From: a virus | Direction: 5' to 3' (one strand) | Virus record (IMG/VR): IMGVR_UViG_3300036832_001149 | Coordinates: 1-64,000 of that record | DNA: 64,000 bases | Part shown: positions 1,701-50,575 of the stretch, piece after piece | Layout: every line of letters starts with the position of its first letter | Position numbering within the stretch: position 1 is the stretch's first letter | Made by a program: the position numbers and the translations under genes | Notes under the pieces: generated by a model | Seen by the model: only the letters and a program-made list of their open reading frames with translations | What the model was told of the DNA's origin: nothing | Databases searched by the model: none

Positions 1701-2206
1701 CCACTCCGTACGACGATTCCCTGCCCGCCGTCGTCATCAGCGGCGGTGATGCCGCTCCGGCCCGCACGGAGGGTGATTTCGTCTTCGCCTGCCGGATGAC
1801 CGGGCCGCAGGGCTGGATCAACCTGGACGACCACGAGCGCTACATCGTCGGGGCGGAATCCTTCGCCACCTCGGCCACCACCTGGCGGCGGGTCCAGGTC
1901 CAGGGACCCTACGTGGCGGGCAAGTTCACCGTCTCGGCCGTGCCCGACCAGGTGACCGAGAACGTCACGGTGTACGTGCTGGGCAGCAGCCAGAGTGATC
2001 TCCAGGCCAACCTGGCCGCCCTGATCGACGCGGTCAGCCAGCCCTACTTCCAGTTCGTCTTCTCGATCGACGAGACCAGCTACATCTGGGACTGCGACTG
2101 CGCCGATTACACGGTGGCCTACACCACCGCCACCCTGAACGCCCGCCAGATCACCGTGAAGCTCCAGATCCTGCGGCATCCACTGCTCACGATGGGGACC
2201 GCCTGA
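1697..2206 (+). CDS. Minor tail protein (distal tail-like)
   Basis: ATGA overlap with TMP; synteny and size. Confidence 0.65.
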   Translation: MTTPYDDSLPAVVISGGDAAPARTEGDFVFACRMTGPQGWINLDDHERYIVGAESFATSATTWRRVQVQGPYVAGKFTVSAVPDQVTENVTVYVLGSSQSDLQANLAALIDAVSQPYFQFVFSIDETSYIWDCDCADYTVAYTTATLNARQITVKLQILRHPLLTMGTA

Positions 2207-2652: not shown

Positions 2653-3809
2653 GTGGTGGCATCTGGGGCACCGGCACCTGGGGGGTCGATGTCTGGGGCA
2701 CCCCGGTCATCGTTCCGCCGGACCCGGGCACCGCCCCGCCCGGGTCGGCCGGGGTCGGGCAGCCCGGTGGCAGCGGCTACACCGGGATCGGCGTCGTGGC
2801 CACCATCGAGTTGGGCGCGTCGATGATGATCACCCAGATGATCCAGTACGCCCCGCCCCCGCCCCAGGTGATCCCGCTGCGCAACTACCGCTCGGTGATG
2901 GACTCCTTCCGGGTACTGGGCGGCAAGCCGGTCGCCCCGCCGGTGATCGACGTGTCCATCCCGGTCGGGGTGACGGTCGGGCTGACCCAGGTGCCGGTGC
3001 CGAACTCCGCCCGGGCCCTGCCGCCGGACATCGACACCGGAGCCACCCTGCGCTGGTATGCCGACAGCTACTTCCTGCACTACTCCGGCAGCGGGCACGA
3101 GACCCAGTGGCTGGACACCGAGGGCGACGTGGCCTGGACGGCCTACGACACCTACCAGCCGGTGTTTGCCCCGGGCTACAACTACCTGATCCCGAGCCCG
3201 AACAGCGCCGAGTCGCTGACCCGACCGGCCCTGGTGTTCGACCCGACCCGGGGCACCTGCATGAACACCGATCTGTCCCTGGATGAGGTGAACAGCGTCG
3301 ATGACCTGGAATGGCTGATGGTGGTATGGAGCCACCCCCTGGCGGCCGGGGCCCAGGCCAGCACCATCCTGGACAACGGCGGACCGGTCCAGGGGCTCAT
3401 CGCCATGCCGTTCGCCGTGTCCGACTCGGTCGTCGGGATGCGCCAGGGGCTGTCCCGGTTCACCGGGGACGGGCTGTTGCTGTGGCAGGACCAGACCGGC
3501 TTCCCGATGTGGTGGGCCCAGATCAGCAACGGCCGCCCGGTCCTGGTCCGGGCCCGGTTCGGGGAACACCCGCTGTTGGAGTGCTGGGGGCCCAAGGGGA
3601 TACACATGGTCCACCGCAGCGTGCTCGACCAGCCCCGCCAGGCCCTGGCCTCCAACTACGTGCTGGGCCGGGAGTTCGGTCAGGTCTCGGCCCAGACCAA
3701 CGCCGGGATGCACCTGATGGAGATCAACTACTACGACCACGCCCTGGGCGATGACGAACTGGCCAGCGCCGTCCAGGCCCTCGACGCCTGTTATGCGGTG
3801 TCCTCGTGA
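2649..3809 (+). CDS. Minor tail protein
   Basis: Start MSGGIWG at ATGA overlap, inside ORF 2301..3809; tail-module synteny. Confidence 0.6.
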   Translation: MSGGIWGTGTWGVDVWGTPVIVPPDPGTAPPGSAGVGQPGGSGYTGIGVVATIELGASMMITQMIQYAPPPPQVIPLRNYRSVMDSFRVLGGKPVAPPVIDVSIPVGVTVGLTQVPVPNSARALPPDIDTGATLRWYADSYFLHYSGSGHETQWLDTEGDVAWTAYDTYQPVFAPGYNYLIPSPNSAESLTRPALVFDPTRGTCMNTDLSLDEVNSVDDLEWLMVVWSHPLAAGAQASTILDNGGPVQGLIAMPFAVSDSVVGMRQGLSRFTGDGLLLWQDQTGFPMWWAQISNGRPVLVRARFGEHPLLECWGPKGIHMVHRSVLDQPRQALASNYVLGREFGQVSAQTNAGMHLMEINYYDHALGDDELASAVQALDACYAVSS

Positions 3810-5995
3810 GCAGGCCGTGGACCCAGCAGGTGGTGGACCGCAGCGATGCCGGGAACCACCGGATCAAGATCACCGCGCCCGGCGGCAGTGCGATCGACGT
3901 CACCTACTTCCGGGGCATCCCGACCCAGTTGGGCAGCTATGCCTTCGGCGACCCGTTCGGGCCGTCGGTGGCCGCGATCGACTTCCCCCAGGTCAGCGTC
4001 TTCGACGCCGTCGGCGGGCCCGGGCTGGAGTGGTTGGTCGAGGGGGCCAATGTCGACATCCTGTGGGAGGAGCCGGACGGCAACCTCACCACGCTGTGGG
4101 AGGGCTTCATCGTCAGCCTGGCCTACAGCCAGGACGAGAACACCTCCAAGGTCTCGGTGCAGTGCAAGGGGGCGCTGTTCCAGGCCGACAACTTCGAGGC
4201 CTATCCGGAGTTCCCGCCGACCCCGATCCCCTACGAACTGTTGATCTACGAGGCGCTCAACCCCCTGCTCCGGCCGTCGTTGCGCACGGCTCCGCTGGTG
4301 ATCGAGTTCCCGGACGACTGGTCGACCGTGGTGCCCGCCTTCGGCGACGACCAGTACTACCTGCGCCCGTACGGGGTCACCCCGGGGGATAGGTGGACCG
4401 GCCTGTCCACCCGCAACACCGGGTCGTGGAACAAGGCACTGACCGGCCAGATCCAGGGCCTGCTGTCGTTGATGTTCACCGCCGACGGGTCGCAGTGGAC
4501 GGTGATGCTCGACCATGGCCGCACCCCTCAGCTACGGGTCCGGCCGGTCCTGTCCGAGCCGGACGAGAACACCCTGGAGGTCTGGGTCGGCCAGCCCGGG
4601 GTGGTGCTCAACCTGTCCGAGGACTGGACCCAGGCGGCCAACGTCTACTACGGCACGGGCACCGACACGTCCGGGGTGACCTACTCCAACACCCGGATCT
4701 CCAGCGACGGCACCCGTACCAGCTATGCCCCGTTCGCGGCCTCCCGCCAGGTCCACCCGTCCTCGATCCTGGTCAACCAGTCCTTCGACGCCTCGGTGAT
4801 GCGCCGGGAGACCCAGATCCAGTTCGACGGGGGGCTTTCCCCGTCGGCGGCGACCGGGGTGGCCCTGAACCAGTTGCAGCGCTCGGCCCATCCCGGCTAC
4901 ACCGGCAGCATCACCCTGAAGCTGGACCCGGCCTGCAACGACGTGACATTCTCCCGCTTCCTGATCCAACCCGGGATGTCGCTGCTGTTGCACGGCTTCA
5001 AGGGGATGCAGTCCGGTCTGTTGGTGCACATCGCCGAGGTCACCGTCAACATCGCCGAAGGATCACTGACACTCACGGTCGATTCCAAGTTCCGCGACCT
5101 GCTCACCATCCAGCAGGTCCAGGCCCGGTCCCGGGATGCGCTGTCCACGCTGCGGGCGTTGAAGCCGGGCAGCTTCTCCCCGGTCATCCAGGACCTGCGC
5201 CGACCGTGGAGCTACGCCGCCGGGTCCGGTGTGATCCCGTCCGCGCCGGGCGGGAAGGACCCGGACGCCACCGCGTTGTTCACCCAGCACGCCAGCGGCA
5301 GCGACACCTTCCCCTGGACCGACCTGACCACGGCGTACCCGCCGAAGTCCTACCCGCAGTTCTACATCGCCATCCCGCCCGCCTCGCCGGACTACAGCCA
5401 GAACTGGGCCCAGACGGTGGACCACTTCGGCATCCCGTGCCTGTTCGCCCAGGGCGGCACCATCCGGCTGACCCAGATCGCCGCCTACGACCAGGACGGC
5501 AAGGTGATGCCGATCCGCTTCCACGTCAGCGTCTACACCGCCAGCGGCATCAACCCGAGCAGCATGCCGATGGTTCCGGGGGCGGGACTGCCGGGCTATC
5601 TGGACAGCCTGGCCGGGCACGTCGGCCAGCACTACCCGTTCTTCCCGGGGGCATTCGAGACGGTCGATCCGAACGGTGCGCCCAAGGGCCCGGGCGATCT
5701 GACCATGAAACAGGACTCCATGATCACCGGCTGGGGCAACTACTACCAGGGGGCCGGGTACTACCCGAACCTGCAGACCGAGGGCGGCCAGCCGACCGGG
5801 ATGCTGGTCGACGAGACGACCTGGACCTTCGACACCACCAGCGACCCGAACTTCCAGTTGCGGCCGAACGAGAACTTCGCCCAGAACGCCGACTCCGGGC
5901 TGTTGTTCTTCATGATCTACGCCGAGAGCATCGTTCCGGGACAGTCGGTCTACTTCCTGGGCCGCTGCTTCCGGGCCGAGCCCGGCACCAGTTAG
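3806..5995 (+). CDS. Minor tail / baseplate hub-like protein (729 aa)
   Basis: Long ORF with host-like codon use, GTGA overlap, tail-module position. Confidence 0.65.
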   Translation: MSRPWTQQVVDRSDAGNHRIKITAPGGSAIDVTYFRGIPTQLGSYAFGDPFGPSVAAIDFPQVSVFDAVGGPGLEWLVEGANVDILWEEPDGNLTTLWEGFIVSLAYSQDENTSKVSVQCKGALFQADNFEAYPEFPPTPIPYELLIYEALNPLLRPSLRTAPLVIEFPDDWSTVVPAFGDDQYYLRPYGVTPGDRWTGLSTRNTGSWNKALTGQIQGLLSLMFTADGSQWTVMLDHGRTPQLRVRPVLSEPDENTLEVWVGQPGVVLNLSEDWTQAANVYYGTGTDTSGVTYSNTRISSDGTRTSYAPFAASRQVHPSSILVNQSFDASVMRRETQIQFDGGLSPSAATGVALNQLQRSAHPGYTGSITLKLDPACNDVTFSRFLIQPGMSLLLHGFKGMQSGLLVHIAEVTVNIAEGSLTLTVDSKFRDLLTIQQVQARSRDALSTLRALKPGSFSPVIQDLRRPWSYAAGSGVIPSAPGGKDPDATALFTQHASGSDTFPWTDLTTAYPPKSYPQFYIAIPPASPDYSQNWAQTVDHFGIPCLFAQGGTIRLTQIAAYDQDGKVMPIRFHVSVYTASGINPSSMPMVPGAGLPGYLDSLAGHVGQHYPFFPGAFETVDPNGAPKGPGDLTMKQDSMITGWGNYYQGAGYYPNLQTEGGQPTGMLVDETTWTFDTTSDPNFQLRPNENFAQNADSGLLFFMIYAESIVPGQSVYFLGRCFRAEPGTS

Positions 5996-6005
5996 GGGAT
6001 GAGAG

Positions 6006-6377
6006 ATGGACGGCGACGTCACCGACTGGCTGGTGGCCCAATGGCTCGGGTCCTTCACTCCGGCCTGGTTCAGCCTGCACGTGGCCAACCCGACCCGGGC
6101 GGGCGACATCGAGTCCGAGGTGGTCGGTGGCTCCTACACCCGGCTGACCGGTGGCTTCACCGCCTACGACGCGCGCACCATCTGGCTCGGGACCCCCCTG
6201 CTCTGGACCGGGATGCCTGCCGTGACGCCGACCTACGTCGGGGTCTGGAACGAGCAGTTCAACGGCCAGATGCTGGCCTCCGGGTCACTGCCCCAGCCGT
6301 ACCCGATAGTGGCCAGTGGGGCCTCGTTCGCCCTGGATGCCTACACATTCGCCATCTCGGTGGGACTGGCGGCCTGA
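6006..6377 (+). CDS. Minor tail protein, distantly similar to 2206..2652
   Basis: WFSLHVANP...EVVGGSYTR...VGVW motif. Confidence 0.6.
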   Translation: MDGDVTDWLVAQWLGSFTPAWFSLHVANPTRAGDIESEVVGGSYTRLTGGFTAYDARTIWLGTPLLWTGMPAVTPTYVGVWNEQFNGQMLASGSLPQPYPIVASGASFALDAYTFAISVGLAA

Positions 6378-6380
6378 TTT

Positions 6381-6430
6381 TGGGCATAAAAAAAGGACCC
6401 GGACCACCCCCTTCGGGGCGATCCGGGTCC
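6381..6430 (-). terminator. Intrinsic terminator at the convergence of tail and early blocks
   Basis: GGACCCGGA...TCCGGGTCC stem followed on the minus strand by TTTTTTTATGCCC. Confidence 0.8.
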
Positions 6431-24163: not shown

Positions 24164-24256
24164 ACTATAACACACTATGATTTCTGTTGTCAAGGTGAAA
24201 CGTGGAAAGCCACCTGAAATGGGTGGCTCGCTCTGCTGTTGACTGTACCACACTAT
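24164..24256 (-). promoter_or_regulatory. Two tandem promoters: TTGACA-N18-TATAGT and ATAGTGTGG-TACAGT
   Basis: Consensus -35/-10 at 24193-24164; second motif copy at 24256-24242. Confidence 0.75.
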
Positions 24257-41955: not shown

Positions 41956-42552
41956 ATGACCACTCCACCGCCAGGGGACGGTCGTAACCAGGTGGTCGAC
42001 CTGTCGGTGATCGACACGGACTGGGGCAATGCCATCGCCGACCGGACCGTCCAGTCCTACGCCAACCAGTCCGATCTGAACTCCGTGTGGGGCGCGGCCC
42101 GCAACGGCTCGACGGCCTACACCGTCGACACCGACGAGTTCTGGGTCCGCCAGGGCGGGGTCTGGAAGCGGACTCCGGGCGGGTATATCGGCGGGGTGGT
42201 CGGTCCGGCCGTCCAGATCGCCTGCCAGGCCTGGACCACCCTGATCGAGTACGACTTCCCGGCCAAGGTCGGCCGGAGATACCTGCTCGACGGCTACGTC
42301 GATTCACAGCAGATCACCGCCAACGGGGCAACCGGGGTCGTGATCCGGGACGACCAGGGTCTCCAGCGGTGGCTCAAATACGAGAGCATCCTGGTCCCGG
42401 GTGCATCCCTGGCCGGGTCGTGCACGATGATCTACACCCCGACCGCGACCAAGACGGCCGCGATCCAGTTGGTTGGGGGGACCTCGGCCGGACAACTGGT
42501 CATCCCGGCCAACTGGGCCCAGATCCAGGTCATCGACATCGGCGGATTATGA
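41956..42552 (+). CDS. Minor virion protein
   Basis: WGNAIADRTVQSYAN...AYTVDTD...W...I.V.DIG. Confidence 0.55.
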   Translation: MTTPPPGDGRNQVVDLSVIDTDWGNAIADRTVQSYANQSDLNSVWGAARNGSTAYTVDTDEFWVRQGGVWKRTPGGYIGGVVGPAVQIACQAWTTLIEYDFPAKVGRRYLLDGYVDSQQITANGATGVVIRDDQGLQRWLKYESILVPGASLAGSCTMIYTPTATKTAAIQLVGGTSAGQLVIPANWAQIQVIDIGGL

Positions 42553-44069
42553 CCGGAACGCTGCAACTGCTCCGGCCCCCGAAGACGAGGACCGAGCTTT
42601 ATCTGCTCACCCAGGTCCTGTGGAACGTCACCATCCCATCCAAACGGGTCTGCCCGCACCACTCCAGCCCGTTCGACGCCTACGCCGAGGCGTTCTTCGC
42701 CGAGACCCCGGTCAGCGTCTGGCTGGCCAGTCGCGGTCTGGGCGGCAAGAGCCGCACACTGGCCTACCTGACCCTGACCGAGGCGGTCGTGCTCGGGGCC
42801 AACGCCACCCTGCTCGGCGGCTCGCTGGCCCAGTCCCAGAACGTCCACGAGGCGATGCAGGAGGGCTGGGAGGCCCCGCTCGCCCCGACCCAGATGGTCC
42901 GCAGCGACACCTCGACCAAGCTGGTGCTGACCAATGACGCCACCGTCCGCCCGCTGACCGCGTCGCAGCGCACCGTGCGTGGTCCCCACCCGCACCGGCT
43001 GCGGATGGACGAGGCCGACGAGATGGACCAGGCGATCTTCGACGCGGCCCTGGGCCAGGCGCTGGCCAGCAAGGGCATCCAGAGCCACACGGCGGTCTCC
43101 TCGACCCACCAGTACCCGAACGGCACCTTCACCGAGGTGCTGCGCCGGGCCGGTGAGCGGAACTGGCCGGTGCACCGCTGGTGCTGGAAGGAGTCCAGCA
43201 ACGACTACGACGGCTGGCTCACGCCGGAGATGATCGAGCGCAAGCGCGCCGAGATCCCGGAGGAGATGTGGAAGGTCGAGTTCGACCTCCAGGAGCCCTC
43301 GGTCGGCAACCGGGCCTTCAACACCGATGCGGTCGAGCGGATGTTCTCGCTGCCATCCGAGCAGGAGTACACCCGCACGGTGCGTGTCGACCTGGAGCGC
43401 TACGAGTTCGAGCCGCCCCAGCGGGCGGCCGAGTACGTGATCGCGGCCGACTGGGCCAAGGAGCAGGACTACACGGTCATCTGCGTGTTCCGCACCGAGC
43501 GCCGCCCGATGAAGCTGGTCTGGTACTACCGGGCCCGGCGGCGGCCCTACCCGGTGATGATCAAGGAGTTCAACGACCAGATGCAGCGCTACTACGCGCG
43601 CGGCATCCACGACGCGACCGGGGTCGGCAACGCCATCAACGACCTGCTGGACATGCGGGCGACCAAGTTCGTGATGGTGGGCCGGGAGCGGGACGACCTG
43701 CTGTCGGAGTATGTGGCGGCGGTGGAGCGCGACCTGGTCCGGGCCCCGCGCATCCCCTCGGCCTACACAGCCCACCTGTACTGCTCGGTGGAGGACCTGT
43801 ACATGCACCGCGAGTACTACTCCAGCCACCTGCCGGACGAGGTCTGCTCGATGGCCCTGTGCTGGCACCTGGCCAAGCGCGGGGTGCTCATCGGCCCCGA
43901 CGTGGTGCCGCGCAGCGAGGAGCCCTCGGACATCATGTCCAAGCTGGTCGGCACCGCCTCGAAGTCCTCGATGGTCGAGTACAACCTGCCGGACGGGCTG
44001 AAGTTCCCCTGGGTGCCTGACGGACAAGTCCATCGCCAGGATTACGGAACACACTTCTTGGATGTGTGA
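42549..44069 (+). CDS. Terminase large subunit
   Basis: ASRGLGGKS (Walker A), LRMDEADEMD (Walker B), AADWAKEQDYTV and HDATGVG, HLPD (RNase H-like nuclease); ATGA start. Confidence 0.9.
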   Translation: MTGTLQLLRPPKTRTELYLLTQVLWNVTIPSKRVCPHHSSPFDAYAEAFFAETPVSVWLASRGLGGKSRTLAYLTLTEAVVLGANATLLGGSLAQSQNVHEAMQEGWEAPLAPTQMVRSDTSTKLVLTNDATVRPLTASQRTVRGPHPHRLRMDEADEMDQAIFDAALGQALASKGIQSHTAVSSTHQYPNGTFTEVLRRAGERNWPVHRWCWKESSNDYDGWLTPEMIERKRAEIPEEMWKVEFDLQEPSVGNRAFNTDAVERMFSLPSEQEYTRTVRVDLERYEFEPPQRAAEYVIAADWAKEQDYTVICVFRTERRPMKLVWYYRARRRPYPVMIKEFNDQMQRYYARGIHDATGVGNAINDLLDMRATKFVMVGRERDDLLSEYVAAVERDLVRAPRIPSAYTAHLYCSVEDLYMHREYYSSHLPDEVCSMALCWHLAKRGVLIGPDVVPRSEEPSDIMSKLVGTASKSSMVEYNLPDGLKFPWVPDGQVHRQDYGTHFLDV

Positions 44070-44506
44070 CTTGATCTCGCTCGACAGTTGATGCGATTGC
44101 ATTCTCGACACTTGCGCTTGGTCGGTTGACGGGGCCAACGGTAAGTGTTCTCTGGTGTGTACTCATGTCCCAGTGGGCAGTGTGTCTTGTTCAGTTCGTG
44201 GTGGTGACCGTGCGCGATCTTGTCGAGCATGTTCTCCGACTTGGTGCCCCAACGCAGGTTGGCCGCACGATTGTCCAAACGATCTCCGTTGAGATGACGA
44301 ACCTCGTGCCCCGGTGGACGACTGCCATGGAACGCTTCACAGACCAGTTGGTGGACGCGACGAGCCGAAGAATAATGGCCGTTCCAGGCATTGAAGACCT
44401 CGTAGCCCTGCTTGGTTACTTTTGTCTTGCGAACGCTCTTGGGTCCCTGGATAAGGCCATCATCGCTGGCGAAGTAGCCAGGGAGACTCGGGATGGGTAG
44501 CCACAT
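44042..44506 (-). CDS. NUMOD4-HNH homing endonuclease
   Basis: WLPIP..PGY..SD.G; VHQLVCEAFHG...RHLNGDRLDNRAANLRWGT.SEN; KTHCPLGHEY...CREC. Confidence 0.9.
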   Translation of the reverse strand: MWLPIPSLPGYFASDDGLIQGPKSVRKTKVTKQGYEVFNAWNGHYSSARRVHQLVCEAFHGSRPPGHEVRHLNGDRLDNRAANLRWGTKSENMLDKIAHGHHHELNKTHCPLGHEYTPENTYRWPRQPTKRKCRECNRINCRARSSHTSKKCVP

Positions 44507-44536
44507 GGAGACATACTAGGGGAAGTTCCTGTTTTT

Positions 44537-44566
44537 GGGCATAAAAAAAGGCCCCCGAAGGGGCCT
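44537..44566 (-). terminator. Intrinsic terminator
   Basis: AGGCCCC-TTCG-GGGGCC then TTTTTTTATGCCC. Confidence 0.85.
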
Positions 44567-44855
44567 GGTGCGGTGAACCAGCCAGGGGCTTCCTCTCTTC
44601 CTGGCTGGTCCGCCACATCCCCCCGGTGACGCTGAGGGGAGGGTCTTGAGGTGAACCGTGATGGTCACAGTGTTCGATAGTCACGTTCGGGGAGGGTAAC
44701 CGTTCACTCTTACCGGCTACCGGTCCCCTACTGCCTTTCTAGTTACGGACCATGGTTGACGGTCCTGTATCGCGCGCCGGGTTCTCCTCGTCGGGTCTCC
44801 GTCGAAACTCACTGTTCGATCGTGCCTCGATGTTCTGGATCGTCGTCGTCGGCGA
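44540..44855 (-). ncRNA. Candidate ncRNA A
   Basis: Promoter 44890-44863, no convincing ORF, several hairpins, terminator at 44565-44540. Confidence 0.45.
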
Positions 44856-44927
44856 TGTCTTCATACTACCACACTATTACATCAGTACAAACACCGAAGG
44901 CCCCGGATTTCTCCGGGGCCCTCCTGG

Positions 44928-45107
44928 TCACAGTCCGTTGATCCGTCGTATGCGCGCCTTCTCCTGCTCCTCGATGAGCCGGGCGATCTGTCGGTCCTCC
45001 CGCTCGATGCGGGTGGTCTCCTGCTGGATCTTCCGGGAGGTCTTGGTGCGCTTGTTGCGCGGACCCAGGAACTGACTTGCGACGATGAGCAGGTCGATGG
45101 GGTTCAT
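44928..45107 (-). CDS. Small basic helical protein (59 aa, not in ORF track)
   Basis: TGTGG-TATACT promoter, GAAAGGAG RBS, MNPIDLLIVASQFLGPRNKRTKTSRKIQQETTRIEREDRQIARLIEEQEKARIRRINGL, then hairpin 44897-44923. Confidence 0.7.
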   Translation of the reverse strand: MNPIDLLIVASQFLGPRNKRTKTSRKIQQETTRIEREDRQIARLIEEQEKARIRRINGL

Positions 45108-45151
45108 CGCTTCTCCTTTCTGTCACTGTCAGTATACCACACTATGATATC

Positions 45152-45406
45152 GGACATAAGAAGAGGGGACCGCGCCAACCTTCCTCAACCGGCTGGGGGG
45201 AGACCTATCCGGTGTGAAGGCGCGATCCCCTCAACGTGCCGAGCCCCGACTCGAACGGGGAGCAGACCACGACTGCTCGGCGACCGACACCAGCAAGAGA
45301 CGTGCTATTGGATCTTGGCCCCGATCGTGGGCCGGTTATGTTCGGAGAACTCTTCCGGCCCGACGATGCTCGCGCTGTCCGCACACGACTGCTCGGTGTG
45401 GTGTCC
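45152..45406 (-). ncRNA. Candidate ncRNA B with tRNA-like minihelix
   Basis: TTGACA-N18-TATAGT promoter; GACACCA/TGGTGTC closing stem; T-loop TTCGAGT; 14-bp terminal helix then T-rich tail. Confidence 0.6.
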
Positions 45407-45411
45407 CTGTC

Positions 45412-45441
45412 ACTATACATCACTATGACATCGGCTGTCAA
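45412..45441 (-). promoter_or_regulatory. Consensus SigA promoter TTGACA-N18-TATAGT
   Basis: Read directly from the reverse complement. Confidence 0.8.
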
Positions 45442-45483
45442 TAGAGCAATGTCCGTACTTCCAGGTCGGGCGATGCGACCATC

Positions 45484-47232
45484 ATGACCATGACCAGCGC
45501 CGGTGGAGACATCCGAGGATATGGGCCCGGTTCGGGTCCGGGCACGACCAACGTGCCGAACAACGCCAGTGTGGGCCAGGAGGAGGTGCCCAACCGCACC
45601 AGCCCGTACCAGGAACTCGGCGTCACCGGCCTCAAGCGCTGGTCGGGCTATGTCGACGAGGAGTTCCTGCCCGCGCTGCGCGGGCGCAAGGCCATCCAGA
45701 TCTTCAAGGAGATGAGCGAGAACGACGCCATCGTCGGCTCGCTGCTGTTCTCCATCGACATGCTGATCCGCGCGGTCGACTGGCATGTGCAGCCCGCCTC
45801 GTCCTCCCAGCCCGACCAGATGGCGGCCCAGTTCGTCGAGTCGTGCATGAAGGACATGTCCCACACCTGGGACGAACTGGTCTCCGAGATCCTGTCCATG
45901 CTGGTCTACGGCTGGTCGTGGCACGAGGTGGTGTACAAGAAGCGCGCCGGTCCCAACCGCAACCAGGAACTGAACTCCAACTACGACGATGGCCTGATCG
46001 GCTGGCGCAAGATCCCCATCCGGGCCCAGGAGACCTGGCTGCAGTGGGTGTTCGACGACTCCGGCGAGACCACGGCCTTGGTCCAACTGGCCCCGCCGAC
46101 CTACCAGCGCACGGTCATCCCCCGGTCCAAGAGCCTGCTGTTCCGCTACAGCACGGCCAAGAACAACCCCGAGGGCCGCTCCATCCTGCGCAACTCCTAC
46201 CGGTCCTGGTACTTCAAGAAGCGGCTGGAGGAGTTCGAGGGCATCGGCATCGAGCGCGACCTGGCCGGTCTGCCGGTGGCCTACATCCCGGCCGACTACC
46301 TCAACGCCAAGCCGGACACCCCGCAGTACAAGATCGTCGATGCCTTCCGCCGCATGGTGCGCAGCGTGCGCCGCGACGAGCAGGAGGGGGTCATCATGCC
46401 GATGGCCTACGACGAGGACACCAAGCAGCCGCTGTACAAGTTCGAGTTGATGACCTCGGGCGGGGCCCGGCAGTTCGACACCAACACCATCATCAGCCGC
46501 TACGAGCAGCGCATCCTGATGACCGTGCTGGCCGACTTCATCATGGTCGGGCACCAGGACACCGGCAGCTACGCGCTGCACGTGGACAAGACCGGCATCT
46601 TCCGCTCGGCCCTGAACGCGGTGGTCAAGTCCGTCGCCGACGTGTTCAACCGCATCGAGATCCCGAGGCTGTTCGCCCTCAACGGCTGGTCGATCGAGTC
46701 GTTGCCGGTGCTCACCCCGACCGACGTGGACCCGCCCGACCTGGCCCAGTTGGGCGCGTTCGTCCAGCAGATGAGCGCGGCCGGGATGACCTTCTTCCCG
46801 GACGAGGACCTGGAGGCGTTCCTGCGCACCACGGCCAAGCTGCCCCCGGTCAGCCCCGAGGTGGCGGCCGAGCGCACGCAGCAGGCGAACCAGCAGCAGG
46901 CGATGGAACTGGCCCAGCAGCAGATGGAACTGGCCACCTCCCACCAGGGGCTGGAACAGGGCCAGCAGGGCATGGAACAGACCGACCAGTCGATGTCCCA
47001 CGCCGACCAGCAGCAGCAACTGGCCCAACAGCAGGCCGAGATGCAGGCCCAGACCGCCCAGTCGAACCTGGCCACCGGTTCCGAGCAGGCCCAGCAGCAG
47101 CGGGAGACGCACACGATGAACGTGGCCCGCTTCGTGCAGAGCTACAAGGACTCCGAGGCGGCCCGGCGCAACCCGAACGTGCAGGGCCCGGGTCAGGGCA
47201 AGACCACCGGCAAGTACACCGCGAAGAGATGA
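45484..47232 (+). CDS. Portal protein (DUF935/Mu gp29-like) with Gln-rich C-terminal extension
   Basis: ELGVTGL..WSG.V.EEFLP.LRG, NNPEGRSILRN.YR.W.FK, GIERDLAGLP, GSYAL; follows terL. Confidence 0.88.
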   Translation: MTMTSAGGDIRGYGPGSGPGTTNVPNNASVGQEEVPNRTSPYQELGVTGLKRWSGYVDEEFLPALRGRKAIQIFKEMSENDAIVGSLLFSIDMLIRAVDWHVQPASSSQPDQMAAQFVESCMKDMSHTWDELVSEILSMLVYGWSWHEVVYKKRAGPNRNQELNSNYDDGLIGWRKIPIRAQETWLQWVFDDSGETTALVQLAPPTYQRTVIPRSKSLLFRYSTAKNNPEGRSILRNSYRSWYFKKRLEEFEGIGIERDLAGLPVAYIPADYLNAKPDTPQYKIVDAFRRMVRSVRRDEQEGVIMPMAYDEDTKQPLYKFELMTSGGARQFDTNTIISRYEQRILMTVLADFIMVGHQDTGSYALHVDKTGIFRSALNAVVKSVADVFNRIEIPRLFALNGWSIESLPVLTPTDVDPPDLAQLGAFVQQMSAAGMTFFPDEDLEAFLRTTAKLPPVSPEVAAERTQQANQQQAMELAQQQMELATSHQGLEQGQQGMEQTDQSMSHADQQQQLAQQQAEMQAQTAQSNLATGSEQAQQQRETHTMNVARFVQSYKDSEAARRNPNVQGPGQGKTTGKYTAKR

Positions 47233-47239
47233 GGGCGGC

Positions 47240-50200
47240 ATGAGCACGATGGCCAAGCGCAAGCCGGTCCGGCTGGACCACCACCACTTCGGCGAGTCGC
47301 CGGACGACCCCACCTTCAACATCGACGCCGCCCGCCAGTCCCACGCCGATGTGATGCGGCGCTGGGACGACCCGGTCGAGGGGGACGACTTCAAGGCGCT
47401 GATGCTGCACACCATCCAGAACGCCACCGCCGTGCAGATCGAGAAGCACCGGGCCGACATCCAGGCGTTCCTGGACGCCTTCGGGGCCACCCAGAAGGAG
47501 ACGGTGGGCAAGGCCATCGTCAAGGCGTATGTGGCCAACTCGGTCAGCGCCGCCCGGGAGTTCGGCATCAAGGACGCCGGACAGCAGTTCGGCAAGGACT
47601 CCGCCTGGGATGAGAGCAAGTGGACGCGCAACCACGGCCAGTTCAGCAGTTACCGGGGCGGCCGGGTGGGTCAGAAGCTGTCCGACCGACGCTTCGAACC
47701 GGCCGCCACCGGGGCTGATCTCGGCTACGGCAGTCAGGGGCGCAGCTACGACGAGCACCTGCGCCAGCAGGCCCTGTTGGCCCAGGCCGCCCGCATCGGG
47801 GCGGCGGCCGGGAGCCGGGAACAGGAGGTGCTGTACCGGATCAAGGACAAGAAGGGCAACGTCCGCGACGTGGTCCCGGGCAAGGGCCAGGTGCCCAAGC
47901 TCAAGCGCGGCGAGCGGCTGCTCGGCCCCCGGGGCACCGGCATCAAGGGCGACGACCTGACGATGAACGACGTCGGCTTCAACCTGATCCAGGCGCTGGG
48001 CGTCCCGGCCGAGAAGGCCCGGCGGTCGGTCGATGCCGCCGGTCGCACGGTGGGTGCGGGCAGCGACTTCGCCACCGAGTGGAACAACCACGCCAACGCC
48101 AATTACGGCACCGAGAAGGGCGCGGCCTACCACAACATCAAGGCCGGGGCCGATGCGCTGCAGGCCATCGCGGGCGGCAACCCCAAGGCCCAGGTGGCCA
48201 TCACCGTCGGCAAGTGGGTCGGCACCCACGGCCCGGAGGCGGAGAAGGTGCTCGGCCCGCACGCCCGCAAGACGGCCTACAAGTACCGGGGGGTCGAGCG
48301 GGCCGCCCGGGACCTGCCGATCCGGCAGGGCGGCATGACCGACCGGGACTACCACGACCGGCTGGTGGCCAAGATCGCGGGCAACATCCCCTCGGCCGGG
48401 GTGCACGCGCTCAACCTGGCCTCGGGCCACACCGCGCCCAGCCACGGCTACCTGATCAACGACAAGGGCAAGGTCATCACCGAGGCGCACGGCTACGGGG
48501 ACGACCACTACCTGCCGTTCAAGCTCTCCGTGCTGAACCGGATGCGGGGCGGCTCCTACATCCGCACCCGCTCGACCGGGGGTCCCACCACCGAGGACAT
48601 CTACGCCACCGCGATCAGCGGGGGCACCGGGTTCACCGTGGCCAGCCGCCAGGGCACCTACGAGGTGGCCTTCGACTCCGACTTCACCCACCACAAGCGC
48701 TTCGGCGACATCGCGCTGGGGATGAGCAAGCGCTACGGCAAGATCCTGGACGCGGTGTCCAGCGGCAAGGTGGTGGCCAAGGGCGAGGTGACCGACAAGC
48801 AGTACCAGGACTGGGTCGTCAAGGGGATGGAGCAGTTCGAGCACGACCCCAACCAGTTCCAATTGGCCCACGACTACGCCAAGGGGCTGGCCGAGCAGCA
48901 GGAGAGCAAGCACGGCCGCCCGCTGTCCCTCGACGGCGAGGGCTACGAATACGCGCTGAAGGCGTTGCACAGCCAGTACCCGTACTACATCGCCAGCACG
49001 GCCTACACCCGGCCCAACGACCAGCGGTTCTGGGACATCAGCGGCGAGGACGGGCACATCGCCCGGATCGGCAGCAGCCACGAGCGGGACACCGGCTACG
49101 TCAAGGCCCGGCACATCAAGTCGGCCGACGCCCTGGTCGGTTACTACGACCCGAGCATCGCCGGGGAGTCCAAGGGCCCCACCGGCCAGCCCACCGGCTC
49201 GGGCAAGGTGAGCGGCGACCTGGCCCACTACGCCAACTGGCGGCACAACCCCTACAACGCCGACAGCCCGGCAGCCCGCAAGGCCCAGGGCGAGGCGGAC
49301 CGGCGGTCCCGGGAGCAGGCCGAGGCCCAGGCCCGACACGCGGCCGAGAACCGGGCCCAGCACGGTGCGACCGGCGGGGTCGGGTCCAACACCGTCCAGC
49401 AGGGCAGCCAACTGCGCAACACCGGCCAGGGGGCGGGCCGGGTCAGCCTGGCGACCGGGCTGGACGCCCGGGGCCAGCGGCTGATGGACATGGTCAAGGC
49501 GGTGCACACGTACCGCACCCAGCACGGCCAGGGGGTCGGGGCCGAGATCGTGCAGTGGCACGCCAACCCCGACGCCTTCGCCCAGGACTACGCGGCCAAC
49601 CCGAACAAGGTCGAGGCCCAGGTGATGGAGCGGTACAACCGGCTGCCGGGCAACCCCACCTCCATCTCGCTGCGCCAGCACCCGGACGAGGAGGTGGACA
49701 CGAGGATGAACCAGGCCGACGACGAGTGGGCGATGAATGAACTGCGCAGCCACCTGCAGACGCCCGAGTCCCAGGACATCCGGGAGGCGCTGGCCGAGAC
49801 GGGCGGGGTGATGTACCACGAGGACCCGGACACGCATGTCGACGCCGACCCGGCGGCGCGGTGGGACGCCTATCACTTCGTGCTGCCCCGACAGGACCTG
49901 TTGAACCGGGCGTTCGAGGACGTCGAGGACCCGGGCGAGAAGGCGGGGCTGATCCACCGGGCCAACGAGATGATGGACAAGGAGCTTGAACTGGACCAGA
50001 TCGAGCAGAACAACGAGGTTCCCTACGAGGACAAGTGGAACCCGGAGGATGCCGACTACGAGGCCGAAGGAGAACCGAAGGAGGCGCACATCCCGGGAAT
50101 CAGCCATGAGCAGGCGCGGGCGCTGCAGGTCTCGGCCGTGGGCAGTGCCCTGACCCAGGTCGCCGACGCCCACCGCCTGGAAAAGCCCACCGGGGCGGGC

Positions 50201-50575
50201 ATCGAGGACCTGGACGACCGGCTGCGGTGGGAGAAGCAGCGGGCGGCCCTGAACAACCACATCGCGGCCTGGGAGGAGAACCCGATGGACGAGGATGACT
50301 ACCGGGATGCCGTGTTCGGCCTGGGGACGTTGCTGAAGGACCCGACCACGGCCGACCTGGGTGGCTATGAGGTGGACCTGCCGGGCGGGCGGGCCACCCT
50401 GAGCCAACTGCACCGGGGCCTGGCCCTGACGGCCGAGCAGAAGCGCCACGGCCTGGGCAAGCGGTACACGGTCGTCAAGCGCACCCCTCGGTACCGCAGC
50501 ACGGGCTGGAGTGCCCGGCCAGCCGTGCTCAAGGTGCGGGTGAAGCGGACCGGGGTGAAGGAAAGGACACGGTGA
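47240..50575 (+). CDS. Large head-associated protein (1111 aa)
   Basis: Between portal and MuF; WDESKWTR..GQF motif; degenerate JAB-like segment; acidic C-terminus. Confidence 0.65.
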   Translation: MSTMAKRKPVRLDHHHFGESPDDPTFNIDAARQSHADVMRRWDDPVEGDDFKALMLHTIQNATAVQIEKHRADIQAFLDAFGATQKETVGKAIVKAYVANSVSAAREFGIKDAGQQFGKDSAWDESKWTRNHGQFSSYRGGRVGQKLSDRRFEPAATGADLGYGSQGRSYDEHLRQQALLAQAARIGAAAGSREQEVLYRIKDKKGNVRDVVPGKGQVPKLKRGERLLGPRGTGIKGDDLTMNDVGFNLIQALGVPAEKARRSVDAAGRTVGAGSDFATEWNNHANANYGTEKGAAYHNIKAGADALQAIAGGNPKAQVAITVGKWVGTHGPEAEKVLGPHARKTAYKYRGVERAARDLPIRQGGMTDRDYHDRLVAKIAGNIPSAGVHALNLASGHTAPSHGYLINDKGKVITEAHGYGDDHYLPFKLSVLNRMRGGSYIRTRSTGGPTTEDIYATAISGGTGFTVASRQGTYEVAFDSDFTHHKRFGDIALGMSKRYGKILDAVSSGKVVAKGEVTDKQYQDWVVKGMEQFEHDPNQFQLAHDYAKGLAEQQESKHGRPLSLDGEGYEYALKALHSQYPYYIASTAYTRPNDQRFWDISGEDGHIARIGSSHERDTGYVKARHIKSADALVGYYDPSIAGESKGPTGQPTGSGKVSGDLAHYANWRHNPYNADSPAARKAQGEADRRSREQAEAQARHAAENRAQHGATGGVGSNTVQQGSQLRNTGQGAGRVSLATGLDARGQRLMDMVKAVHTYRTQHGQGVGAEIVQWHANPDAFAQDYAANPNKVEAQVMERYNRLPGNPTSISLRQHPDEEVDTRMNQADDEWAMNELRSHLQTPESQDIREALAETGGVMYHEDPDTHVDADPAARWDAYHFVLPRQDLLNRAFEDVEDPGEKAGLIHRANEMMDKELELDQIEQNNEVPYEDKWNPEDADYEAEGEPKEAHIPGISHEQARALQVSAVGSALTQVADAHRLEKPTGAGIEDLDDRLRWEKQRAALNNHIAAWEENPMDEDDYRDAVFGLGTLLKDPTTADLGGYEVDLPGGRATLSQLHRGLALTAEQKRHGLGKRYTVVKRTPRYRSTGWSARPAVLKVRVKRTGVKERTR

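What the first reader, a model, noticed from the sequence alone, without database searches (positions are those of the whole stretch)
44530..45445. Antisense three-unit cassette (RNA B, 59-aa ORF, RNA A) between terminase and portal
Seen: three consecutive minus-strand promoter-to-terminator units in ~900 bp; only the middle one has an RBS and a credible ORF. The outer units (~255 and ~315 nt) are rich in hairpins. All three promoters share the ATAGTG motif of the early genes. Inference: a self-contained early-expressed RNA/protein module (regulatory, toxin-antitoxin-like or anti-defence) that would also oppose premature terL-portal read-through.
Basis: partly seen in the sequence, partly recalled or inferred. 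Interest (0 to 1): 0.75.

Follow-up and report, generated by a model that had tools for sequence, protein, structure and literature searches.

The report
Phage cassette of two new RNAs
Between the DNA-packaging and portal genes of an uncultured soil phage lies a backward-facing cassette, conserved in its closest relatives, that makes one small protein and two previously undescribed folded RNAs, one carrying a tRNA look-alike; what they do is still unknown.

Summary
On the minus strand between terL (42549-44069) and portal (45484-47232) lie three promoter-to-terminator units. Their promoters belong to a motif (ATAGTGNNNTANNNT) found 6 times in the window, all on the minus strand (0.02 expected).

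Only the middle unit codes for protein. Its 59-aa product has homologues (56-103 aa) only in related uncultured phages.

The cassette keeps its order in the four closest relatives I could fetch. It is absent from more distant relatives, where terL abuts portal.

RNA A (unit 3) is a new structured RNA. Across five genomes, 27 base pairs are kept: 134 of 135 cells are canonical and 19 pairs show changes on both sides. Each core folds on its own into the same rod, all reading frames are closed, and Rfam has no match.

RNA B is more variable. In 3 of 5 genomes it carries a tRNA-like minihelix (6-bp acceptor, canonical T arm, no anticodon arm).

Unit borders are composite terminator-promoter junctions, like the PeSLs of T4-type phages. 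That fits the shuffling of modules seen between relatives.

A toxin-antitoxin reading is not supported, and function remains unknown. This scan earlier noted analogous antisense RNA/tRNA units between terminase and portal in E. coli phages; I checked this in phiV10.

The parts
45412..45441 (-). Promoter of unit 1 (TTGACA-18-TATAGT; contains ATAGTG twice)
   Evidence: (11 of 12 matches). family D1: 85% identical over 33 nt to the unit 2 promoter region.
45160..45405 (-). RNA B (unit 1), about 245 nt: stem-closed 5' domain, tRNA-like minihelix, terminator hairpin
   Evidence: MFE -115.4 kcal/mol, z -3.2. No credible ORF. No Rfam match.
45286..45405 (-). 5' domain of RNA B, closed by GACACCA (45405-45399) pairing with UGGUGUC (45292-45286)
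   Evidence: By my reading of the sequence, L005 has an analogous 7-bp closing stem directly before its tRNA-like element; the full-length L005 fold does not recover it.
45237..45281 (-). tRNA-like minihelix: 6-bp acceptor-like stem, short 4-bp arm, canonical T arm (CCCCG-UUCGAGU-CGGGG), discriminator A, no anticodon arm, no CCA
   Evidence: Conserved in L005 and L006: 33 of 33 cells canonical and 6 of 11 pairs with changes on both sides. ARAGORN calls no tRNA or tmRNA.
45163..45233 (-). Terminator hairpin T1 of unit 1 (14-bp outer stem, tail UCUUCUUAUG)
   Evidence: A similar hairpin and tail precede the small gene's promoter in L003.
45131..45145 (-). Promoter of unit 2 (ATAGTG-TGGTATACT, extended -10)
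44928..45107 (-). 59-aa ORF (RBS GAAAGGAG at 45120-45113): short hydrophobic N-terminus, then a basic and charged helical region ending in an Arg-rich ...ARIRRINGL
   Evidence: homologues in L003-L006 and L087, plus P0126-P0128 at 59-73% identity. No Pfam or PHROG family.
44896..44923 (-). Terminator T2 of unit 2
   Evidence: 12 pairs, 9 of them G-C.
44863..44877 (-). Promoter of unit 3 (ATAGTG-TGGTAGTAT)
44542..44857 (-). RNA A (unit 3), about 315 nt: a conserved structured RNA
   Evidence: Homologues at L003:2685-3116, L004:4462-4722, L005:1712-2130 and L006:4622-4922, all on the minus strand.
44769..44856 (-). 5' domain of RNA A. Helix P1 locks the 5' end (44856-44852 pairs with 44773-44769). 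Hairpin P2 (44818-44803) carries a GNRA-type loop (GUGA or GAGA flanked by A)
   Evidence: In L006, P1 changes to UGGUA/UACCA. The P2 stem differs in all five genomes while staying paired.
44651..44767 (-). Rod of RNA A: outer helix, inner helix, an irregular helix between the conserved strands GUAACUAGAAAGG and GACUAUCGAAC, and a variable tip hairpin
   Evidence: the same nested fold is the MFE in all five genomes, z from -1.5 to -4.3..
44542..44566 (-). Terminator T3 (AGGCCCCTTCGGGGGCCT followed by TTTTTTT)
   Evidence: The same tail, TTTTTTTATGCCCAAAA, ends the leftward arm at 6403-6375.
44042..44506 (-). HNH_3 endonuclease gene: a variable passenger, not part of the conserved core
   Evidence: 5e-18; phrog_1492, 1e-52. 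Among the relatives it is present only in L005, at 71% amino-acid identity.

Best explanation
This is an accessory ('moron'-type) cassette inserted backwards at the terL-portal junction of one clade of uncultured high-G+C phages. It consists of independent transcription units read by the host RNA polymerase. Each unit is bounded by a composite terminator-promoter junction: hairpin, then YUUUAUGYCC, then about 8 nt, then cATAGTG-TGGTATAGT.

Its products are as follows.
1. RNA B, about 245 nt. It has a stem-closed 5' domain, then a tRNA-like minihelix, then a terminator hairpin. The minihelix most likely acts as a handle for tRNA-processing enzymes (RNase P, RNase Z). These would cut the 5' domain free. 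In the relatives L005 and L006, they would cut it away from the small gene's mRNA.
2. A 59-aa basic, mostly helical protein.
3. RNA A, about 315 nt. Its 5' end is locked in a helix. It has a GNRA-type hairpin and a rod of about 100 nt with conserved internal loops. I read it as a stable, trans-acting, protein-binding RNA. Its most likely partner is either the co-conserved Arg-rich small protein or a host protein.

Shown here: the units, their conservation and order, the non-coding nature of the outer units, and the base pairing of RNA A and of the minihelix.

Inferred: early timing, processing at the minihelix, formation of a ribonucleoprotein, and any action on the host.
For: Units and promoter family:
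- (6 sites against 0.02 expected).
- 26 sites of the same extended -10 family in six genomes, most of them 25-30 nt after a terminator stem.

Insertion and conservation:
- terL abuts portal (gap of about 180 bp) in most relatives with 47-67% portal identity.
- The closest relatives (72-87%) have gaps of 1.4-2.5 kb holding the same kind of minus-strand cassette.
- G+C falls to 57.5% in the cassette against about 68% in the flanks.

Small protein:
- Nine homologues with a protein-like conservation pattern.
- In L087 the gene is translationally coupled (ATGA) to the upstream ORF.

RNA A:
- nhmmer finds it only in the five cassettes.
- 27 pairs across 5 genomes: 134 of 135 cells canonical, 19 pairs changed on both sides. 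With the 3' partner slid by 1-2 columns, only 29-41% are canonical.
- The rod is the MFE fold in each genome taken separately.
- Five G-U pairs would be A-C mismatches on the other strand, so the minus strand is the RNA strand.
- Stops in all frames of the conserved block (read from the sequence) and no conserved ORF.

Minihelix:
- 33 of 33 cells canonical and 6 of 11 pairs compensatory.
- T loops UUCGAGU and UUCGACU, with the G-C pair closing the T stem kept.
- In L005 and L006 it sits directly before the RBS of the small gene.

Design of a stable RNA:
- In RNA A and in RNA B of the window, the first paired stem starts about 7 nt after the -10 element, and each unit ends in a hairpin.
Against: - There are no expression data. 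No RNA run holds the stretch.
- Only five sequences of RNA A and three of the minihelix could be obtained.
- I picked the helices by eye before counting, so the counts lean towards them. P4, and the K helices of L006, are aligned by position only.
- In full-length folds, several helices have low probability. P1, P3 and P5 score 0.00 in L006. The L005 minihelix is not in the MFE of its full leader.
- The two local hairpins P3 and P5 and the nested rod cannot be told apart by covariation.
- RNA B as a whole is not conserved: L003 and L004 have other RNAs in its place.
- The acceptor-like stem has 6 bp rather than 7, so recognition by tRNA enzymes is not assured.
- The purine-rich loop motif is not significantly enriched.
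- Nothing links RNA A to the small protein except synteny.
Confidence: 0.55

Rival explanations
1. The 'RNAs' are cis-acting leaders rather than RNA genes. RNA B and/or RNA A would modify the transcribing polymerase, or switch fold, so that transcription runs through the terminators T1-T3 into the following genes (small ORF, HNH). This would resemble the put RNAs of HK022 or an N/nut-type system, with the Arg-rich small protein binding the GNRA-type hairpin P2.
For: - In L005 and L006 the RNA B equivalent really is the 5' leader of the small gene, with no terminator between them.
- T1 and T2 have interrupted U tails, so some read-through is plausible.
- A 13-nt exact repeat (45396-45384 and 45280-45268) allows alternative pairings in RNA B.
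- Hairpin P2 (a G+C stem with a GNRA-type loop) resembles boxB in style; this comparison rests on my own knowledge.
- Earlier notes of this scan proposed put-like leaders for the analogous E. coli phage units (unchecked AI notes).
Against: - In the window, L003 and L004, every unit has its own consensus promoter, so read-through is not needed for expression.
- RNA A ends in a canonical strong terminator.
- The genes after RNA A differ in every genome: HNH, and unrelated ORFs of 54, 88 and 136 aa.
- No similarity to any Rfam antiterminator or riboswitch family.
Confidence: 0.15
2. The outer units have no function of their own. On this reading they are decayed leftovers (a degenerate tRNA gene, old leaders) between terminator-promoter junctions, kept only as spacers or transcriptional insulators of a recombination hotspot.
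For: - The terL-portal junction is an insertion hotspot with unrelated contents in different relatives.
- 'Empty' promoter-plus-terminator units exist at window 24256-24200 and at L003 2145-2090.
- RNA B is replaced by other sequences in L003 and L004.
Against: - RNA A is kept at the same place in five genomes whose portals differ by 13-28%.
- Its helices survive many double substitutions, and its single-stranded blocks are nearly invariant.
- The T arm and acceptor stem of the minihelix are kept intact through compensatory changes in three lineages. Decay would not produce that.
Confidence: 0.12
3. A toxin-antitoxin-like pair (type I or type III). The 59-aa protein would be toxic, and RNA A or RNA B would neutralise it or its mRNA.
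For: - The small protein and RNA A are always neighbours.
- The protein is small, with a hydrophobic start and a charged tail.
Against: - No tandem-repeat RNA is present.
- There is no excess complementarity between RNA A and the small gene's start region in five genomes, z from -0.8 to +1.0.
- The RNAs are not antisense to the gene.
- The hydrophobic stretch is about 12 residues with an Asp, too short to span a membrane (read from the sequence).
- No PADLOC search was run.
Confidence: 0.05
4. The outer units encode short translated peptides, for example the 41-aa ATG ORF at 44864-44739.
For: Short ORFs of 21-74 aa can be drawn in both units.
Against: - None has an RBS.
- The ATG of the 41-aa ORF lies inside the -10 hexamer.
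- Its counterpart in L003 stops after 11 codons (read).
- The most conserved block has stops in all three frames.
- The conservation pattern is that of paired helices, not of codons.
Confidence: 0.03

Closest known systems
PeSLs (promoter-early stem-loops) of T4-type phages: composite terminator/promoter cassettes that flank ORFans and mediate modular shuffling (PMC2839356, PMC4122927)
   Same: - Strong sigma-70-like promoters are joined to terminator stem-loops at a nearly fixed distance and repeated at every unit border.
- They bracket small non-essential cargo in a region whose content differs between close relatives.
- 'Empty' junctions occur.
   Different: - The phage group is different: a high-G+C, probably actinobacterial host.
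- The motif sequence is different.
- The cargo here includes conserved non-coding RNAs, not only ORFans.
- Recombination between the junctions, and mini-circles, have not been shown.
The antisense tRNA-Arg(UCU) unit between terminase and portal of phiV10/epsilon15-like coliphages
   Same: Checked here in phiV10. Between terL (712-2187) and portal (3578-5257), on the opposite strand, it has:
- an unannotated leader of about 400 nt;
- a tRNA at 2929-2853;
- two hairpin-terminated segments;
- a small gene;
- a final terminator.
Position, orientation and order (leader RNA, tRNA element, terminators, small gene) are the same as in the window.
   Different: - phiV10 carries a true tRNA with an anticodon, whereas here there is only an acceptor/T-arm look-alike.
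- I did not compare the sequences or folds of the leaders.
- The phages and hosts are unrelated, so the likeness may simply reflect a shared insertion hotspot.
- The functional readings for the coliphage unit (put-like leader, anti-CBASS passenger) come from unchecked notes of this scan.
Phage morons (a gene with its own promoter and terminator inserted between conserved late genes, as in lambdoid phages and HK97; own knowledge)
   Same: - Its own promoter and terminator.
- Inserted between two conserved late genes.
- Lower G+C than the flanks.
- Absent from more distant relatives.
   Different: - Two of the three units carry RNA rather than protein.
- The phage shows no tyrosine integrase, so lysogenic expression, the usual rationale for morons, probably does not apply.
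tRNA-like modules of non-tRNA RNAs: the tmRNA tRNA-like domain, bacterial Y RNA (YrlA), and the stable RNAs C and D of the T4 tRNA cluster (own knowledge)
   Same: - Acceptor-like stem stacked on a canonical T arm, with no anticodon arm.
- It is attached to a larger structured domain.
- A 5'-proximal segment could alternatively pair with the 3' acceptor strand, as in tmRNA.
   Different: - ARAGORN finds no tmRNA.
- There is no G3-U70 pair.
- No Ro/TROVE or RtcB gene is present in the phage.
- There is no Rfam match to YrlA or Y RNA.
- The acceptor stem has 6 bp.
HK022 put RNAs and lambda N/nut (processive antitermination; own knowledge)
   Same: - Structured RNA lies just downstream of early promoters and ahead of terminators.
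- An Arg-rich small protein is encoded next to a GNRA-type hairpin.
   Different: - Each unit has its own promoter.
- Neither sequence nor structural similarity was tested, because no put or nut model was available.
- The genes downstream are not conserved.

Membership tests
tRNA | Cloverleaf with an anticodon arm, recognised by tRNA finders | tested here: not met
   ARAGORN finds nothing in the window or in L003-L006 and L087. Only 15-18 nt lie between the acceptor 5' strand and the T stem in the window and L005.
tRNA | T arm: 5-bp stem closed by G53-C61, and a 7-nt loop UUCRANY | tested here: met
   Loops are UUCGAGU, UUCGACU and UUCGAGU. The last stem pair is G-C in all three genomes.
tRNA | 7-bp acceptor stem | tested here: not met
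   The stem has 6 bp in all three genomes.
tmRNA | tRNA-like domain with a G3-U70 pair, plus a tag reading frame; detected by ARAGORN | tested here: not met
   No tmRNA is called. The third acceptor pair is C-G in all three genomes. I did not search separately for a tag frame.
Bacterial Y RNA (YrlA) / Ro system | Rfam model match, and a neighbouring Ro (TROVE) gene | tested here: not met
   No Rfam match even at permissive thresholds. No TROVE or RtcB gene in the 75.5-kb record. A host-encoded Ro cannot be excluded.
PeSL composite terminator/promoter cassettes | A strong sigma-70-like promoter joined to a terminator stem-loop, repeated at the borders of small cargo units | tested here: met
   26 promoter sites in six genomes, most of them directly after a terminator hairpin and a YUUUAUGYCC tail.
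PeSL composite terminator/promoter cassettes | Located in regions whose gene content differs between close relatives | tested here: met
   Unit content between portal and the small gene, and after RNA A, differs in every relative.
PeSL composite terminator/promoter cassettes | Recombination between the junctions (indels with crossovers inside the motif, mini-circles) | not testable with these tools
   This needs inverse PCR or near-identical genome pairs. Only the same phage was found in a second run.
PeSL composite terminator/promoter cassettes | T4-type myovirus genome | tested here: not met
   The portal is of the Mu / P23-45 type and the polymerase is a PolIII-alpha type. The genome is 75.5 kb at 66% G+C. 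The nearest GenBank portals are from Arthrobacter phages at 45% identity. This is an analogue, not a member.
Type III toxin-antitoxin (ToxIN-like) | Tandem-repeat antitoxin RNA, then a terminator, then the toxin gene | tested here: not met
   There are no tandem repeats in the RNA units.
Type I toxin-antitoxin | A small membrane peptide, and an RNA complementary to its mRNA | tested here: not met
   Duplex energies between RNA A and the start region are no better than for shuffles in five genomes. The hydrophobic segment is too short. RNA B against the mRNA was not tested.
Any Rfam 15 family | Score at or above the gathering threshold | tested here: not met
   The window gives 0 hits. The best sub-threshold hit, Atu_C8 at 31 bits against a threshold of 50, covers only the terminator part. 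The relatives give nothing below E = 0.28.

The most novel reading that the evidence does not exclude
RNA A and the co-conserved Arg-rich 59-aa protein form a small ribonucleoprotein, made from strong host-type promoters early in infection. It would act on a host machine such as RNA polymerase (termination), tRNA-processing enzymes, or an RNA-sensing defence. On this reading, backward-facing RNA-rich units at the terminase-portal junction, each with a structured leader followed by a tRNA or tRNA look-alike, are a recurrent device of unrelated tailed phages (here and in phiV10-like coliphages) rather than a coincidence of insertion hotspots.
Probability: 0.12. Interest if true: 0.8.

Novelty: new variant of a known kind. 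Interest (0 to 1): 0.5.

Why it matters
- Phage-encoded structured RNAs are far less charted than phage proteins. This locus yields two RNA families absent from Rfam 15. One of them (RNA A) has comparative support good enough to justify experiments.
- It provides a small protein family restricted to this phage clade.
- It shows that the composite terminator-promoter junctions described for T4-type phages have a counterpart in a high-G+C phage lineage, where they carry RNA genes as cargo.
- The likeness in layout to the tRNA-Arg unit of phiV10-like coliphages raises a question. Is a leader RNA followed by a tRNA-type element a general way for phages to make and process early stable RNAs?
- The practical value is limited for now, because neither the host nor the function is known.

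Tried and rejected
- **Rfam.** Searched at gathering and at permissive thresholds on the window and on four relatives. Nothing useful was found.
- **ARAGORN.** No tRNA or tmRNA.
- **GenBank phages.**
  - No DNA match, near or distant.
  - No match to the 59-aa protein.
  - terL matches only a Thermus phage, at 25% identity.
- **Getting more homologues.**
  - IMG/VR scans with portal, terL, the 59-aa protein and a DNA pattern gave only L003-L006. L085 and L086 were chance hits inside a coding region.
  - The one metagenome scan added only L087.
  - The one genome-contig scan gave 28 hits in unrelated phyla. nhmmer shows these to be chance matches.
- **Expression.** No RNA holder is listed for the stretch. 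Laying contigs of two soil runs showed only the same phage and a fragment of an L006-like phage.
- I dropped that step and redid the pair counts from coordinates only.
- **Alignment limits.** MAFFT alignments (A1, A3) put several helix arms out of register, and mafft-qinsi was not installed. For that reason I used neither count of structure pairs nor a covariance model.
- **Other negative results.**
  - Complementarity of RNA A to the small gene's start region: none.
  - Enrichment of AGNGAR loops: not significant.
  - ESM Atlas: no lead.
  - TROVE, RtcB and tyrosine integrase in the phage: none. This argues against a Y-RNA/Ro system and against an attP remnant.
  - The supplement of the IMG/VR structured-RNA catalogue (PMC10690425) is not held, so I cannot say whether these RNAs are among its 10,006 candidates.
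Full report
**Setting**

The window is bases 1-64000 of a 75.5-kb IMG/VR virus record, estimated 94% complete, with about 66% G+C.
- A leftward arm of small genes runs from about 25 kb down to about 6 kb.
- A rightward arm from about 25 kb holds a DnaB-type helicase, a primase and a PolIII-alpha polymerase.
- Further right come a collagen/BclA-like fibre protein, terL (42549-44069) and a Mu/P23-45-type portal (45484-47232).
- No GenBank phage is close. The best portal matches are Arthrobacter phages at 45% identity, and terL matches only a Thermus phage at 25%.
- The record has no tyrosine integrase.

**The observation**

The 1414 bp between terL and portal are read on the minus strand.

Their promoters share ATAGTGNNNTANNNT. 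This motif occurs six times in the window, always on the minus strand, against 0.02 expected. The other three copies sit at the head of the leftward arm and drive small protein genes through short hairpin leaders.

A wider table of extended -10 sites in six genomes gives the consensus cATAGTG-TGGTATAGT. It has no conserved -35, and it usually lies 25-30 nt after a terminator stem and a YUUUAUGYCC tail. P1 and P2 are 85% identical over 33 nt.

Both outer units fold better than shuffles, at z = -3.2 and -3.0.

It follows unit 3 and overlaps the end of terL by 28 nt, convergently.

**Comparative context**

I fetched 80 portal relatives from IMG/VR and 80 from metagenomes.
- In relatives with 47-67% portal identity, terL abuts portal with a gap of about 180 bp.
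- Some relatives have other protein genes inserted there (L013, L014, L034, L035, L038, L062).
- Only the closest relatives hold minus-strand cassettes of the same make, with the same promoters and terminators. These are L003 (84%), L004 (80%), L005 (72%) and L006 (87%). Their gaps are 1.8-2.5 kb.
- L087 (80%) shows the start of one before its contig ends.

The cassette is therefore an insertion specific to one clade, at a junction that is a hotspot. G+C drops to 57.5% within it.

**The middle unit codes for a protein**

Homologues of the 59-aa ORF lie at the same place in L003-L006 and L087. A search of 5.8 billion proteins finds only members of this clade, 56-103 aa long. Three of them are 59-73% identical to the window's protein.

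The pattern is protein-like: MNP(I/L)DL(I/L)LV..., then a basic stretch, then RIEREDRQI.(K/R)LI.EQE.AR.RRINGL. In L087 the gene is coupled by ATGA to an upstream coiled-coil ORF. No Pfam, PHROG or Atlas lead was found.

**RNA A (unit 3)**

An nhmmer profile of RNA A finds only the five cassette copies among 190 loci. There are no homologues in 185,579 representative prokaryote genomes beyond chance pattern hits.

The 5' two-thirds is conserved. Reading the sequences by coordinates, I find the following.
- **P1** pairs the very 5' end with a segment 57-78 nt downstream. It is AUCGC/GCGAU in three genomes, AUCGC/GUGAU in L005 and UGGUA/UACCA in L006.
- **P2** is a hairpin whose stem differs in all five genomes. 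Its loop is a GNRA-type GUGA or GAGA flanked by A.
- **The rod** has an outer helix (CUGGACC/GGUCCAG, with A-U changing to G-C), an inner helix (AUGGUC/GACCAU), and an irregular helix. The irregular helix forms between the nearly invariant strands GUAACUAGAAAGG and GACUAUCGAAC.
- **The tip hairpin** has an unrelated sequence in every genome.

Over 27 pairs and five genomes, 134 of 135 cells are canonical and 19 pairs change on both sides. When the 3' partner is slid by 1-2 positions, only 29-41% are canonical.

Independently of my choice of helices, each of the five rod segments folds by itself into the same nested shape, with z from -1.5 to -4.3.

Five G-U pairs fix the strand. The conserved block has stops in all three frames, and the 41-aa ORF of the window is not conserved.

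Caveats:
- There are only five sequences.
- I chose the helices before counting.
- Several helices are not favoured in full-length folds.
- The two local hairpins (P3, P5) and the nested rod are equally compatible with the covariation.

**RNA B (unit 1)**

In the window, RNA B is a 5' domain closed by GACACCA/UGGUGUC, then a 45-nt tRNA-like minihelix (45281-45237), then a long terminator hairpin.

The minihelix has a 6-bp acceptor-like stem, a 4-bp arm, a canonical T arm and a discriminator A followed by CG. It has no anticodon arm and no CCA.

It recurs in L005 and L006 with all 33 cells canonical and 6 of 11 pairs compensatory. There it sits in the 5' leader of the small gene, directly before the RBS. 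L003 and L004 have other RNAs instead, so RNA B as a whole is variable.

ARAGORN, Rfam and searches for Ro and RtcB are all negative.

A 13-nt exact repeat in the window lets a segment near the 5' end pair with the 3' acceptor strand instead. So does a 5'-proximal complement in L006 and, by my reading of the sequence, one in L005. I note this alternative long-range fold but cannot decide on it.

**How it probably works**

The units are bounded by composite terminator-promoter junctions. These match, in logic but not in sequence, the PeSLs of T4-type phages. PeSLs flank small cargo genes, isolate them transcriptionally and promote modular shuffling (PMC2839356, PMC4122927).

That fits two things seen here:
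- the differing cargo between relatives;
- the 'empty' junctions at window 24256-24200 and at L003 2145-2090.

Within this frame, RNA A and the small protein are the conserved cargo. RNA A has the build of a stable, folded, protein-binding RNA: its 5' end is in a helix, it has a GNRA loop, it has a rod with conserved internal loops, and it ends in a strong terminator. Its partner is unknown. Synteny points to the Arg-rich small protein, but that is inference.

The minihelix is best read as a processing handle for tRNA enzymes. Early timing is inferred from the shared promoter family.

A toxin-antitoxin reading finds no support.

The cis-leader or antitermination reading remains the main rival. 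It draws on L005 and L006, where the RNA is a true leader. It is weakened by the separate promoter of every unit and by the unconserved downstream genes.

**Comparison with an earlier lead of this scan**

Notes on E. coli phages describe backward-facing units between terminase and portal, with a structured leader, tRNA-Arg, terminated modules and a small gene.

I checked the layout in phiV10. Between terL and portal, on the minus strand, it has an unannotated stretch of about 400 nt, tRNA-Arg(UCU) at 2929-2853, two terminators, a small gene and a final terminator.

The layout parallels the window's. Whether this is more than a shared hotspot is open.

**What could not be done**

- No RNA runs are listed for the stretch.

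**Verdict**

This is a real, conserved phage cassette with two new structured RNAs and a clade-specific small protein. Its architecture is understood; its function is not.

Noticed in passing
window 44042-44506 (-): HNH_3 homing-type endonuclease gene directly after RNA A. A TAGTAT -10-like hexamer lies 6 nt before its ATG, so the mRNA may be leaderless. Its 3' end overlaps the 3' end of terL by 28 nt, convergently. A homologue (71% amino-acid identity) is found only in L005, so it is a mobile passenger.
   Followed up: partly
window 24200-24256 (-); L003 2090-2145 (-): 'Empty' units: a consensus promoter followed within about 15-20 nt by a terminator hairpin, giving an RNA of about 45 nt. They look like scars of cargo loss between terminator-promoter junctions.
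   Followed up: no
window 6375-6403 (-); 44542-44566 (-); L003 about 2090-2110 (-): The same terminator tail, TTTTTTTATGCCCAAAA(n)CAG, ends the leftward arm, RNA A and the L003 cassette. A shorter YTTATGYCC follows most terminators of this phage group.
   Followed up: partly
window 45384-45396 and 45268-45280: An exact 13-nt direct repeat (CCGAGCAGTCGTG on the minus strand). One copy is near the 5' end of RNA B; the other forms the 5' acceptor strand and arm of the minihelix. L006 and, by my reading of the sequence, L005 also have a 5'-proximal segment able to pair with the 3' acceptor strand. This suggests an alternative fold in which the whole RNA is a large tRNA-like molecule.
   Followed up: partly
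L003:3845-4189 (-), L005:1340-1591 (-), L006:5503-5706 (-), L087 about 190-335 (-): A second family of small coiled-coil ORFs (48-114 aa, several ending in ...DC or ...QC) rides in the relatives' cassettes. It is absent from the window.
   Followed up: no
L013, L014, L034, L035, L038, L062 (terL-portal gaps): The terL-portal junction is an insertion hotspot. More distant relatives carry unrelated protein genes there, on the same strand as terL by my reading of the printed sequence. L062 has small antisense ORFs with promoters of a different type.
   Followed up: partly
window 44668-44681 and 44810-44823: Inside RNA A, the conserved strand ACUAUCGAACACUG resembles the P2 hairpin region ACGAUCGAACAGUG (86% identity). 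This may be an internal duplication; I looked at it only in the window.
   Followed up: no
window 42549-44069 (+) and 47240-50575 (+): terL is very divergent: a weak Pfam Terminase_6C hit, and only a 25%-identity match to a Thermus phage among GenBank phages. The 1111-aa protein after portal has no Pfam or PHROG family.
   Followed up: no
window 44783-44790 (-): An SD-like AGGAGAAC, the phage's usual RBS, lies in the 5' domain of RNA A. The next AUG is 29 nt away and opens a 4-codon frame, and the motif is not conserved in the relatives.
   Followed up: partly
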